Shown here: positions 29,026-62,695 of the stretch, one piece after another
Position numbering within the stretch: position 1 is the first letter of the stretch
Layout: the number at the start of each line of letters is the position of its first letter
DNA from: Eledone cirrhosa
Lineage: Eukaryota
Direction of reading: 5' to 3'
DNA length: 64,000 bases
Assembly: GCA_964016885.1 (NCBI GenBank)
Contig: OZ024741.1
Coordinates: 314,836,001-314,900,000 of the forward strand
Made by a program: the position numbers and the translations under genes
The notes under the pieces: generated by a model
Told to the model about the DNA's origin: nothing
Database searches by the model: none
The model's input: only the letters and a program-made list of their open reading frames with translations

Positions 29026-29160
29026 AATGCCCAGAAGGAAAGTATGGTTTATTATGTAATGGGACATGCCATTGTATGAACAACACTAACTGCGACAAGA
29101 GAACTGGATCTTGTTCAGATGGATGTGCTGCAGGTTATATTGGTGACAGCTGCCAACAAG
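29026..29160 (+). CDS. Exon 1: EGF-like 8-Cys repeat (MEGF10/Draper/SCARF type), internal coding exon
   Basis: ttttcag acceptor, AG|gtattt donor, 135 bp, phase 1-1; [45 protein letters not shown]. Confidence 0.9.
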
Positions 29161-29470
29161 GTATTTCCTAAAGATGCTAAGTATTTACAATATATATATA
29201 TGTATATATATATATATATGTATACATATATATATATATATATATATATATATATATATATATATATATATATATATATATATATATATATATATATATA
29301 TATATATATATATATATAATAATAATAATAATAATACTATTTATAGTTATGTATATAGTATAAACAACTATAAACAGGAAGGTTTGTAATTTCCTACTAA
29401 CTTATTACCTACCAGTAAGAGAAATAGCTGAATGTATGAACATCAGATGTTTTACAGAGCAGAAAAATAA

Positions 29471-29820
29471 ATAAATTATACAATTATCATCAAAGTTGTG
29501 TTCAAATCATTTAATAGCTGACAATCGCTTATTCCAAACTCTCATTTGGGATCATCGGAGCGTTATCAATGTTTGCACATGTAATTAACCTCCTATTCAA
29601 CTGAACAGTAATATACATACATATATATTGATGTCGTAAATACGAAACTGTTGCTCACAACATCAATATATATGTATGTATGTTACTGTTCAGTTGAATA
29701 GGAGCTTAATTACATATGCAAACATTGATAATACCCCGATAATTCCAAATAAGAGTTTGGAAGAAACGATTGTCAGCTATTAAATGATTTGAACACAACT
29801 TTGATAATTGTATAATTTAT
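29471..29820. repeat. About 350-bp hairpin (about 160-bp arms), unit A copy
   Basis: ataaattatacaattatc...attgatgt is the reverse complement of acatcaat...gataattgtataatttat. Confidence 0.93.
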
Positions 29821-30449
29821 ATATATATATATATGTCTGTGTGTGTGCGTAAACGGGTACCTATAGTAGTTCCTAAACTTGAGTTTCTGCCACTTTTAAT
29901 GCAGCAGTAGGGTGCACTACACACTCTGTCCGCATATATTATGCAACAATGCATAATCGGTGCATATGGCTTCATCAGCAGTTTACGCCTAAAAAATAAT
30001 CAATCGATTGACAGAGTTCAACTCCAGTCCGTGATGGCTATGAATGCTTGTGACGGCCAGCACAGTAAAGTGATTAGCAACTGAGATCTGATACAATGCT
30101 GTAATCCGATATATATATATATATATATTTATATATATATATATATATATATATATATATATATATATATATATATATATATATATATATATATATATAT
30201 ATATATATATATATATATATATATATATATATTGGTAAAAGGAAAAGAAAATGCTGACAAATTGTTCCCAGTGAAAAATAGTTTAATTAGGAATAAGTAA
30301 AAGTTAGTAATAGTATTGGTTAGTATTCAGTTTTGGTTTTAAGTTTTACCGGATGCGCATTTCTAATGCTTTTCAAAAATAATTTTGAGATAGAGCGCCC
30401 GTGATGTTTGCTCGAATGTATATAAAATATATATATATATATATATTAT

Positions 30450-60187: not shown

Positions 60188-60348
60188 AATTATAGTAGAA
60201 CTGATTCAAGGAAAGGTTTCTGATATTTATGCATGCAATGTTTCTAATTATATTGATTATTATTTACCATAAGGTCATAAGGCATTGTAAAATTGCTGTT
60301 CTGGTTTTACATGAACTTAACATCTCTTTAAGTAATATACAGTATCAA

Positions 60349-62085
60349 TGTATATGGACGGGTCTAATCTCAACATCAAATATTTAGAATTACAGTCGGT
60401 CACAGTTAGTGTGAGTGAGTACACACACCGACGCAAGGTCGAAGAAAAAATATATATACAAACCAACATAGTATTCACCGAAAGTTAGTTTACAAAACGA
60501 CAAATGTTATATTAGTCAAATCTCCATTTGACGGTGTACATTGGAGAAAATTGGGTCAACCGCAATCATATACACACGCAAGTAAATTCAGTTCAATATT
60601 CTGCTATACGTGTATCGATTGAATTGTAAATAGTGTGTTTTGGTATATACACATCCGTATCGTCTAAAAAGTGTATGTTTTGGGATATACACATCCACGT
60701 GAAGAGCAAGTAGTCAGCTCATATCAAACTCTGTATGTGCCGTTGTACCATTGAGAATCTGAGTCCCCAAATCTGTGCGTGCAAGCAACCGCCATGTAGG
60801 CCACCAAGAGACTCTGTGTAGGGTTGGGTATTTGAGTTAAGGTGTCAGTATGTGCTTTTCCCGTCAAATGGGCCCCTGGGCTTTTAAGATAGGTGTTTGA
60901 GTGGTGGAGGGGTGTTACCCAACACAGAAATAAAATAAAATAAAATAAAAAAGAATAGCAAAACCCCGAGGATGTGTGTAAGCCCATTAACGGTGTGTAA
61001 GTAATATTTCCAATCAGTAACCGTGAACACTCCATGGTTAGATGATCACGGATCAAAACCTAGTGTAGTGTTCAATTGATAGGATCGTGACCAGTCATAA
61101 CTGTGGGAACTCCGTGTCTAAAGAGACCGGGTAATGTGTAGAGTCATGTATGAAGAGCGTAATCGGTCTTAACTGAATGTGTAATACGTCTAACTATTTA
61201 CTAACCGAGAGAACTCAATGGATGGGTATTCTAAAGTAATGGTGAAAGCGCGTAATCGGTCTTAACTGAGTGTGTAATCATTCTAACTATTTACTAACTA
61301 GGTATTCTAAAGTAGTGGTAAATGTGCACTCAGCTGTGAGAACTCCGGGGAAACAAACCGAGTACCGTTTGTAAGTGAGCAAATGATCTAAGCTGTCTAC
61401 TACCTGAGTGTATGATTGTCTGTGTTTTGCTAATTGACAGAACTCTATGGCTAAGGTAAAAAGGGAGGAGTTAGTGGTAGGTTACTTTCCAAAAATCCTG
61501 CGGAAGATTTTCGAGGTTCTATGTTGGCAGTTGCTGAAACAATCCGCTCTCCTATTGATTAATAGGAGGCCGCCTCTAATAATATTAAAGGTTTCAGCGA
61601 TATATAAATTACAGACGCCCGTGCTGCTGTAATAAGGCTGGGCTGAGCAAATTATGGACCAGGAAAAGGAGTGTTCTATATTCCAGACTAATTCAGAAAG
61701 CGCAGTGCTATTTTTTTAATCTAATCTATTAAAGGTGATTATACCATCTATCCTTAAATTCAGTGGCAGTTGCTCCATCATACATGAAGGTTCTACCTTA
61801 CAGTCCTAGACTATGTTTTTGGTGAGGCATTCACCAGCCATGGGGCAAGTGGCGGTGTTCCTGAAATTCCATTTTCTGTTATCGACCTGGGTAGTTCCAG
61901 AGGAACCACGGTACCTCTGATGACGGGTCTCAGTTATTGTCTGCTCTATGGGTAAGTTCCCAGGGGTTGGGGTGACCCGACTCGCCTCACGCGTATGAGA
62001 CCGTTCATCCATAGAGCTGCCATTAATTCTGCCATGTCTCATCCCGCCTTGGGCTGTCCTAAGTCTACTACAATTCATCTTATTT
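60349..62085 (-). mobile_element. Penelope-like remnant family 5 (GIY-YIG plus probable 3' UTR)
   Basis: Minus strand: CPMAGECLTKNIV, GATATEFKDRWYNH, NSTALSELVW, WSII..AQPY..CNL..AE..II, NCQH. The left boundary is inferred from where the unit's intron sequence is interrupted. Confidence 0.7.
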
Positions 62086-62560
62086 TGATATATAATTGCA
62101 AACGAATCGAATATTAGTATTAATATTCGAAAACCTCAGATTACGTTTATTGTATTCAGCCATGTAGGGCGAATTTTTTTTTTATTTGAATATTGCAAAG
62201 CTAGACATAAATCGCTTGTATTTTGTCGTTAAATATAAGAATATCACTAATAATTGTAGTAGAACTGATTCAAGGAAAGATTTCTGATATTTGTGCATGC
62301 AATGTTTCTAATTATATTGATTATTATTTTCCATAAGGTCATAAGGCATTGTCAAATTGCTGTTCTGGTTTTACATGAACTTAACATCTCTTTATGTAAT
62401 ATACTGTATCAATATTTTATTTAATAGTTGTATGCAGACTGATTCGTTTATCAACACTTTAATCTTATAATTATTGATATGGTATAAAATTGATACCACA
62501 TCTAAAATTGTATGTAATTAATGATATCTTCAACATTATCATTTACACTGATATTTTCAG

Positions 62561-62695
62561 AATGCCCAGTAGGAAAGTTTGGTTTATTTTGTCATGGGAT
62601 ATGCCATTGTATGCACAACTATTTCTGTGACAAGAGATATGGATATTGTTTAAGTGGATGTGCTGCAGGTTATTTTGGTCGCAACTGCCAAGAAG
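62561..62695 (+). CDS. Exon 4: EGF-like 8-Cys repeat, divergent and aromatic-rich
   Basis: Canonical AG/GT, 135 bp; ECPVGKFGLFCHGICHCMHNYFCDKRYGYCLSGCAAGYFGRNCQE. Confidence 0.9.

What the first reader, a model, noticed from the sequence alone, without database searches (positions are those of the whole stretch)
29026..62695. Growing array of symmetric EGF-repeat exons, each amplified with about 10 kb of intron: candidate variable receptor locus
Seen: four 135-bp phase 1-1 exons with intact splice sites, 8 conserved Cys and no stops, spaced 12.6, 9.5 and 11.5 kb apart, with homologous intron on both sides. Known: such repeats build the ectodomains of MEGF10/CED-1/Draper and SCARF scavenger receptors and of EGF-rich receptor phosphatases, and symmetric exons can be skipped without frameshift. 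Inference: recent whole-unit duplications are extending or diversifying an ectodomain, either as constitutive repeats or as a cassette/mutually exclusive array, possibly in immune or self-recognition.
Basis: partly seen in the sequence, partly recalled or inferred. Interest (0 to 1): 0.8.

Follow-up and report, generated by a model that had tools for sequence, protein, structure and literature searches.

The report
Phosphatase-less EGF-repeat receptor family expansion
The four exons are the start of a ten-repeat EGF array in a predicted membrane receptor gene, one of about 40 clustered copies, likely in an octopus, that likely arose from a receptor phosphatase by losing its enzyme part and that vary from a few to about 90 repeats, as fast-evolving recognition receptors would.

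Summary
The four 135-nt phase 1-1 EGF exons are real. They are exons 1-4 of a 10-exon array in one gene: signal-peptide exon 80 kb upstream, then a transmembrane exon and a low-complexity tail (predicted 668 aa). The gene is one of about 40 paralogs in two clusters (C2:310-316 Mb, C10:25.8-27.4 Mb); none showed a phosphatase exon. Transmembrane and tail exons and their introns (66-75% identical) tie the family to a MEGF-type receptor tyrosine phosphatase elsewhere on C2; best public hits are Octopus MEGF-RPTPs. Repeat number runs from 6 to 139 copies (about 90 intact) between one signal and one transmembrane exon. Exons diverge faster than flanking intron (exon 4 vs 6: 13 replacement, 2 silent changes, flanks 97% identical), suggesting diversifying selection, but one neutral control also gave omega above 1. 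Mutually exclusive splicing is unsupported. Serial inclusion with some in-frame skipping is likelier, as annotated for the Octopus sinensis homolog. No RNA could be tested. Closest known: Biomphalaria scavenger-F-like/MEGF-RPTP resistance clusters. New variant of a known kind.

The parts
1..29025 (+). 3' part of the 80-kb first intron of the gene, filled with mobile-element remnants; the signal-peptide exon lies upstream of the window at G000:C2:314,785,045-314,785,108
21654..34954 (+). Duplication unit 1 (starts in a retroelement remnant)
   Evidence: blocks 92-99% identical to unit 2
29026..29160 (+). EGF exon 1 of 10, 135 nt, phase 1-1, 8 Cys
35037..49459 (+). Duplication unit 2
41632..41766 (+). 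EGF exon 2 of 10
51086..51220 (+). EGF exon 3 of 10
53535..60353 (+). Intron 3 segment duplicated in intron 4, about 12 kb downstream and outside the window
   Evidence: blocks 90-96% identical
62561..62695 (+). EGF exon 4 of 10; recent sister of exon 6
62696..64000 (+). Start of intron 4; the gene continues beyond the window with EGF exons 5-10 (G000:C2:314,910,226 to 314,944,987), the TM exon (314,954,212-314,954,305) and the tail exon array (from 314,974,513)

Best explanation
The exons belong to a predicted single-pass cell-surface receptor (signal peptide, ten 8-Cys EGF-like modules, one membrane helix, a charged low-complexity tail with no enzyme domain), one of about 40 clustered paralogs that likely arose from a MEGF-type receptor tyrosine phosphatase by losing its galactose-binding and phosphatase exons and that likely act as fast-evolving recognition, tethering or decoy receptors. 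Shown: exon order and phases, cluster size, DNA homology of the TM and tail region to the phosphatase gene, absence of phosphatase exons in the stretches read, and repeat number from 6 to 139 copies per gene. Inferred: unequal crossing-over between repeat-rich units adds one module at a time without frameshift; modules are spliced in series by default, with occasional in-frame skipping of single exons or runs; copies drop out mostly by losing a splice site; non-Cys positions are under diversifying selection; the ligands are foreign or altered-self surfaces.
For: Gene frame. Family: 40 signal-exon loci (40 of 53 candidates scored), 39 TM loci, 31 adjacent signal-to-TM pairs. No PTP match in either cluster: 0 of 72, 0 of 25; six PTP exon pieces gave best E 0.076 in 1.85 Mb. 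Parent: the RPTP gene at C2:257.47-257.66 Mb shares the 94-nt TM exon, a KKRR-starting juxtamembrane exon and four collinear intron blocks at 66-75%; its exons match Octopus MEGF-RPTPs at mostly 49-82%. Serial plus skipping: O. sinensis LOC115219456 isoform X1 has all 10 units; X4-X8 lack 1-4 consecutive units in frame. Stops sit in splice-lost copies, 16 of 17 in gene D. Selection: pN 0.168, pS 0.076, proximal intron 0.032; M0 omega 2.06, p=0.035; M2a vs M1a p=0.0018; exon 4 vs 6 has 13 replacement and 2 silent changes against 2.9% flank divergence, p=7e-6; 54:7 under an empirical mutation spectrum, p=0.025. Analogy: Biomphalaria resistance loci hold clusters of the same architecture with and without PTP (PMC13712769 section 20; PMC12297450 passages).
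Against: No transcript evidence for any junction in this genome. A presumed-neutral control (14 unique donor-lost copies) also gave omega 2.55, p=0.031, and M2a p=0.016; the full 27-copy control was 1.36, not significant. Gene conversion among copies can inflate site tests. Gene-wide ratios in gene F (1.09) and central gene D (0.81) are not above 1. 27 of the splice-lost copies are one clade, so the stop/splice association is not independent counts. Gene D has one stop-bearing and one to three frameshifted copies with AG and GT present, so it is either partly skipped or a recent pseudogene. The tail is a minisatellite read-through whose frame differs between paralogs, so some members may be decaying. 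The direction of descent (phosphatase lost, not gained) rests on Octopus outgroups, not on a rooted test. The immune role is analogy only.
Confidence: 0.62

Rival explanations
1. Combinatorial cassette or mutually exclusive array: each transcript uses one or a small variable subset of modules, giving a Dscam-like repertoire.
For: All exons are symmetric phase 1-1. The Octopus homolog has annotated skipping isoforms; X4 and X5 are not explained by mis-mapping to a like unit. Gene D would otherwise need a roughly 4,000-aa ectodomain and carries splice-competent null copies. The proximal 300 nt upstream of the exons is more conserved (about 4%) than distal intron (7-10%).
Against: No reverse-complement element shared by all ten exon flanks with four anchor regions; longest shared matches equal the shuffled control, apart from 23-27 nt for three exons and 15-16 nt for two. 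The homolog's longest isoform includes every unit. Inactivation through splice loss is at least as frequent as through stops, although stops have the larger mutational target (21.7 vs 12 single-base routes).
Confidence: 0.17
2. Neutral repeat churn in a mostly decaying family: unequal crossing-over in a transposon-rich region multiplies exons, and the excess of replacement changes comes from conversion, mutation bias and relaxed constraint.
For: The control subset also shows omega above 1. Tails are frame-variable minisatellites; 43-45 of 139 gene D copies lack a splice site; dead signal, TM and tail duplicates exist.
Against: All 8 Cys and two Gly are invariant across 108 distinct intact peptides (Cys were a selection criterion for that set); 10 of 10 focal and 30 of 33 gene F copies are intact; signal and TM exons keep frame in the paralogs read; in the focal gene the exon diverges faster than its flank, whereas in dead copies it diverges more slowly (0.070 vs 0.091).
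Confidence: 0.13
3. Non-immune adhesion or cell-identity receptor (neural wiring, skin, gamete recognition) with the same structure and evolution.
For: Nothing here fixes the tissue; EGF-repeat single-pass proteins act in adhesion and engulfment in the nervous system (established knowledge, recalled).
Against: The closest clusters in snails map to parasite resistance (PMC13712769, PMC12297450); birth-and-death with replacement excess is typical of host-pathogen receptors (recalled).
Confidence: 0.06
4. Assembly artefact: haplotypes stacked in tandem.
For: Units 1 and 2 are 95-99% identical over most blocks; gene D has one 200-N gap.
Against: No N in 654 kb around the window; the other units are 77-96% identical with nested, non-adjacent pairings; all ten exons differ in sequence. 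At most one unit pair could be affected.
Confidence: 0.02

Closest known systems
[quoted passage not shown]
   Same: Clustered signal peptide + EGF/MEGF ectodomain + single TM + small tail without domains, next to relatives with galactose-binding and PTP domains.
   Different: Here about 40 genes in two clusters, one exon type amplified from 6 to 139 copies, a minisatellite tail, and DNA-level evidence of recent descent from a specific RPTP gene. No resistance mapping here.
Molluscan MEGF/GBD receptor tyrosine phosphatases (B. sudanica SudRes1, PMC12297450 passages; Octopus sinensis XP_036365016-25)
   Same: Same 8-Cys EGF exon type; same TM exon size and phase; homologous juxtamembrane exon and introns in the own-genome RPTP.
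   Different: No galactose-binding or PTP exon; only the 44-aa unit type is amplified, while the Octopus RPTPs alternate two unit types; different signal peptide.
MEGF10/MEGF11/PEAR1, CED-1, Draper; SCARF1/SCARF2
   Same: Tandem EGF-like repeats on a type I membrane protein; atlas neighbours carry EGF_laminin and EGF_PEAR1L.
   Different: No EMI exon found; no NPxY or YxxL in the predicted tail (one Tyr); a lineage-specific multigene cluster, not a conserved single-copy ortholog (defining features recalled).
Arthropod Dscam1 mutually exclusive exon arrays (recalled)
   Same: Tandemly duplicated, same-phase ectodomain exons with divergent sequence.
   Different: Whole domains rather than half-domains; kb-scale introns; no docking/selector complementarity found; the homolog is annotated with all units in series.

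Membership tests
Molluscan scavenger class F-like TM1 receptors (PTP-less) | Signal peptide | tested here: met
   64-nt ATG exon with hydrophobic core, conserved in paralogs; no SignalP run
Molluscan scavenger class F-like TM1 receptors (PTP-less) | Multiple EGF-like repeats | tested here: met
   10 intact 8-Cys exons; Pfam hits weak and below cut-off; atlas and profile hits are MEGF-type
Molluscan scavenger class F-like TM1 receptors (PTP-less) | Single TM and small tail without domains | tested here: met
   predicted from DNA only
Molluscan scavenger class F-like TM1 receptors (PTP-less) | Genes clustered in tandem | tested here: met
   31 signal-TM pairs in two clusters
Molluscan scavenger class F-like TM1 receptors (PTP-less) | Binding and clearance of pathogen or damage ligands | not testable with these tools
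   no ligand or expression data
MEGF/GBD receptor tyrosine phosphatase | Intracellular PTP domain(s) | tested here: not met
MEGF/GBD receptor tyrosine phosphatase | Galactose-binding (F5/8 type C) domain | tested here: not met
   tblastn of 5 Octopus proteins finds none in the 654 kb around the gene
MEGF/GBD receptor tyrosine phosphatase | Homologous TM and juxtamembrane exons | tested here: met
MEGF10/CED-1/Draper | N-terminal EMI domain (recalled) | tested here: inconclusive
   No EGF exon found between the signal exon and exon 1; no EMI profile was run on that intron
MEGF10/CED-1/Draper | NPxY and YxxL motifs in the tail (recalled) | tested here: not met
   167-aa tail has one Tyr, in neither motif
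Dscam-type mutually exclusive array | Docking/selector base-pairing shared by all variants | tested here: not met
   exact matches only, four 3-kb anchors, 600-nt flanks; imperfect or distant pairing not excluded
Dscam-type mutually exclusive array | One variant per transcript | not testable with these tools
   no reads could be examined; the homolog's isoforms argue against
Cassette-exon array | Symmetric, frame-preserving exons | tested here: met
Cassette-exon array | Skipping seen in transcripts | tested here: inconclusive
   only in automatic isoform models of the O. sinensis homolog

The most novel reading that the evidence does not exclude
An octopod-specific variable receptor system: about 40 phosphatase-less receptors paired with their parent receptor phosphatase, in which arrays of up to about 90 diversifying EGF modules (62 distinct peptides in one gene) are combinatorially skipped, so that cells display different ectodomains, a cephalopod counterpart of Dscam or FREP-type immune or self-recognition diversity.
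Probability: 0.15. Interest if true: 0.85.

Novelty: new variant of a known kind. Interest (0 to 1): 0.52.

Why it matters
Cephalopod receptor expansions are usually discussed for neural gene families (recalled); eight full-text searches here found no description of this one. It gives a concrete candidate for a variable recognition repertoire in an octopod. It shows at DNA level how the PTP-bearing and PTP-less receptors that sit together at snail schistosome-resistance loci can arise from one another. It also offers a rare single gene with about 90 intact copies of one exon. One long-read transcriptome would decide between a giant serial rod and a combinatorial repertoire.

Tried and rejected
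RNA evidence: no RNA holder listed (two unlabelled runs of one study held 0.40-0.50 of the words); no read evidence was obtained, so splicing and the unit 1/2 junction stay open. A single-exon protein search found nothing (1 candidate); a 13-exon profile worked. Pfam hits were all below cut-off. PDB gave one weak hit, 6u11, E 0.0025. Earlier scan notes: nothing by place, sequence or words. The codon fits (site models) and 62 were poorly optimised and are replaced. The alignment-based splice classification mis-scored some 132-nt exons as broken; one search scored two weak GT donors as lost; hence the ranges 89-90 intact and 43-45 lost. Candidate tail exons about 56, 66 and 97 kb past the window end were dropped: weak donors, absent from paralog B, or intronic in the RPTP gene. 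A blastp screen between regions returned mostly transposon matches. Rejected: PTP-fused receptor, MEGF10/Draper ortholog, mutually exclusive array as lead reading, whole-array assembly artefact. No structure or complex job was run. Not read: C2:313.90-314.00 Mb of gene D, most other paralogs, and paper supplements (the gene tables of both snail papers may bear on repeat counts).

Full report
Observation. After masking simple repeats, each shares 620-790 nt of exon plus upstream intron with the others at 88-98%. Units 1 and 2 are a 13-14 kb tandem duplication (21654-34954 vs 35037-49459) whose ends lie in copies of a retroelement remnant; units 3 and 4 pair with units downstream of the window. 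The window is G000:C2:314,836,001-314,900,000 in a 3.0-Gb genome.

The gene. In 654 kb around the window (no N) the array continues to ten exons, all intact. Coordinates beyond the window are C2 position minus 314,836,000: exons 5-10 start at 74226, 79539, 86274, 88862, 97231 and 108856 (the last is 132 nt). A 64-nt signal-peptide exon lies at -50955, with a dead copy lacking ATG and donor near -67,300. No further EGF exon was found between it and exon 1. A 94-nt phase 1-2 transmembrane exon lies at 118212. The next exon, at 138513, starts with a basic stop-transfer stretch and runs into a purine-rich minisatellite; its acceptor and about 630 nt of intron are present in eight tandem copies, the last two without AG. 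The first copy gives a 167-aa charged tail with one Tyr; the predicted protein is 668 aa with 80 Cys. The next paralog's signal exon follows at 223030.

The family. The exon 1 peptide drew 1,356 candidates; all 150 scored lie in C2:310.4-315.1 Mb or C10:25.8-27.3 Mb. An exon-start pattern has 300 exact matches against 0 for its control (only the first 100 listed). Signal-exon DNA matched 40 loci (40 of 53 candidates scored; 23 on C2, 17 on C10). TM-exon DNA matched 39 loci (one on small contig C1149 was left out of the pairing). 31 signal-TM pairs are adjacent and in order, spanning 20-919 kb. Genes read: paralog B has 6 EGF exons, the focal gene 10, gene F on C10 33 (30 intact, 29 distinct peptides). 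Gene D has 139 plus-strand copies in the 820 kb read of its 919 kb, with one signal exon and one TM exon, 89-90 intact and 62 distinct peptides, partly as a six-exon higher-order repeat of about 22 kb. Gene D has one 200-N gap.

Origin. No phosphatase match falls in either cluster (0 of 72; 0 of 25), and six phosphatase exon pieces find nothing better than E 0.076 in 1.85 Mb of cluster DNA. A gene at C2:257.47-257.66 Mb has galactose-binding, EGF, TM and phosphatase exons. Its TM exon has the same size, phase and splice context, its next exon also begins KKRR, and four collinear intron blocks match the focal gene at 66-75%; homology stops about 250 nt after the old donor. A 13-exon profile's best named hits are Octopus sinensis and O. 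vulgaris MEGF-RPTPs (59-64% to exon 1), and among 226 proteins surveyed only Octopus entries scored above 52 bits per module. The host is therefore likely an octopod (inference). The family likely arose by duplication of this RPTP type with loss of the galactose-binding and phosphatase exons (inferred from outgroups, no rooted test). The general architecture of signal, EGF repeats, TM and short tail recurs in other molluscs (Lottia, Lymnaea, Patella rows), with different sequences.

Splicing. No transcript of this genome could be examined. Indirect evidence: of eight RefSeq isoforms of the O. sinensis homolog, X1-X3 carry all 10 units in series and X4-X8 lack 1, 1, 2, 3 and 4 consecutive units in frame. 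These are automatic models, and X6-X8 join like units, so mis-mapping is possible; X4 and X5 are not so explained. An exact-match search for docking/selector pairing found nothing shared by all ten exons above shuffled controls; three exons had 23-27 nt and two had 15-16 nt matches to one anchor each. In gene D, 16 of 17 stop-bearing copies also lack a splice site, although stops have the larger mutational target (21.7 vs 12 routes); but 27 splice-lost copies descend from one GT-to-AT change. By my count from those lists, at least five events are splice loss alone, against three null and about five Cys-loss events in splice-competent copies. This leans to serial inclusion without proving it. 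The splice-competent nulls lie in the decayed ends of gene D, so it is skipped there or recently dead.

Selection. Across 108 distinct intact peptides (chosen for having 8 Cys) the Cys positions and two Gly are invariant while other positions vary widely. Among focal exons 1-8, pN is 0.168, pS 0.076 and proximal intron 0.032 (28 non-independent pairs); distal intron is mostly 0.07-0.10 and whole exon 0.136. Codon models give omega 2.06 (p=0.035) and M2a over M1a p=0.0018, sites 5, 20, 25, 30, 38; gene F M2a p=7e-11 with M0 1.41, not significant; the five RPTP exons 0.83, not significant. Exons 4 and 6 differ by 13 replacement and 2 silent changes while 3,862 flanking sites differ at 2.9% (p=7e-6). 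With a mutation spectrum taken from introns the focal ratio is 2.2 (54:7, p=0.025) and the window's four exons give 25:2 (p=0.039). Against: a 14-sequence donor-lost control also gave omega 2.55 (p=0.031), though the full 27-copy control gave 1.36 (p=0.24) and diverged less than its flank; gene F (1.09) and central gene D (0.81) are not above 1 by that count; conversion is not modelled. Diversifying selection on the focal exons is probable, not proven.

Comparison and novelty. PMC13712769 (passages and section 20 read) describes a Biomphalaria resistance region with clustered scavenger class F-like receptors, most with small tails and some with galactose-binding and PTP domains. PMC12297450 (passages read) reports 10 of 23 genes with MEGF domains, three of them RPTPs, at SudRes1. 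This family works like those by architecture, and fails membership of MEGF-RPTP, MEGF10/Draper and Dscam-type arrays on tested features. Eight full-text searches (listings only, apart from the two papers above) found no description of it in cephalopods; the library omits most subscription papers. Verdict: new variant of a known kind, interest 0.52. The tail has no enzyme or Tyr motif and the helix no charged residue, so a tethering, scavenging or decoy role is favoured over direct signalling (inference).

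Noticed in passing
G000:C2:313,089,081-314,010,600 (L101-L184): One paralog spans about 920 kb with 139 plus-strand EGF exon copies in the 820 kb read, about 90 intact, including a six-exon 22-kb higher-order repeat that carries two donor-dead copies per unit.
   Followed up: yes
G000:C2:314,973,907-314,996,459 (L008-L010): Tail exon present in eight tandem copies with its upstream intron, followed by about 7 kb of purine-rich minisatellite; copies give tails of 33 to 213 aa, possible alternative last exons.
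   Followed up: partly
window 18197-20373 (-), 21654-23805 (+), 35037-37171 (+): Three 95-98% identical retroelement remnants (RT-like and GIY-YIG-like motifs; Penelope-like label recalled, Pfam gave no hit); two mark the starts of duplication units 1 and 2.
   Followed up: partly
window 178-3015 (+) and 4257-7673 (-): LINE-like open frames of 718, 227 and 1,139 aa with 90-99% identical copies nearby.
   Followed up: no
G000:C2:231,112,961-231,115,825: Twelve EGF exon starts at an exact 258-nt period, in a region with phosphatase exons at 232.7-233.0 Mb.
   Followed up: no
G000:C2:257.5 Mb and 261.8 Mb: Two recent copies of the MEGF-RPTP gene (97% identical in the PTP exon tested).
   Followed up: partly
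G000:C22:17.64 Mb, C14:9.15-9.16 Mb (three tandem), C10:12.09 Mb: Intronless tyrosine phosphatase domains in open frames of up to 1,254 aa, possibly retrocopies.
   Followed up: no
L185, G000:C2:314,022,571-314,022,915 (-): A galactose-binding-domain-like exon inside the C2 cluster, so some members or relics keep that domain.
   Followed up: no
G000:C2:313,191,384 (-): An inverted EGF exon copy within about 300 nt of the only stop-bearing, splice-competent copy of gene D; a fold-back could mask it.
   Followed up: no
G000:C2 about 315,177,700-315,197,300: Long tandem repeat, apparently with a 48-nt period, inside the next paralog.
   Followed up: no
window 54794-55632 and 55877-59356: Inverted repeats (371 nt at 93%; 664 nt at 87%) in intron 3, MITE-like.
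   Followed up: no
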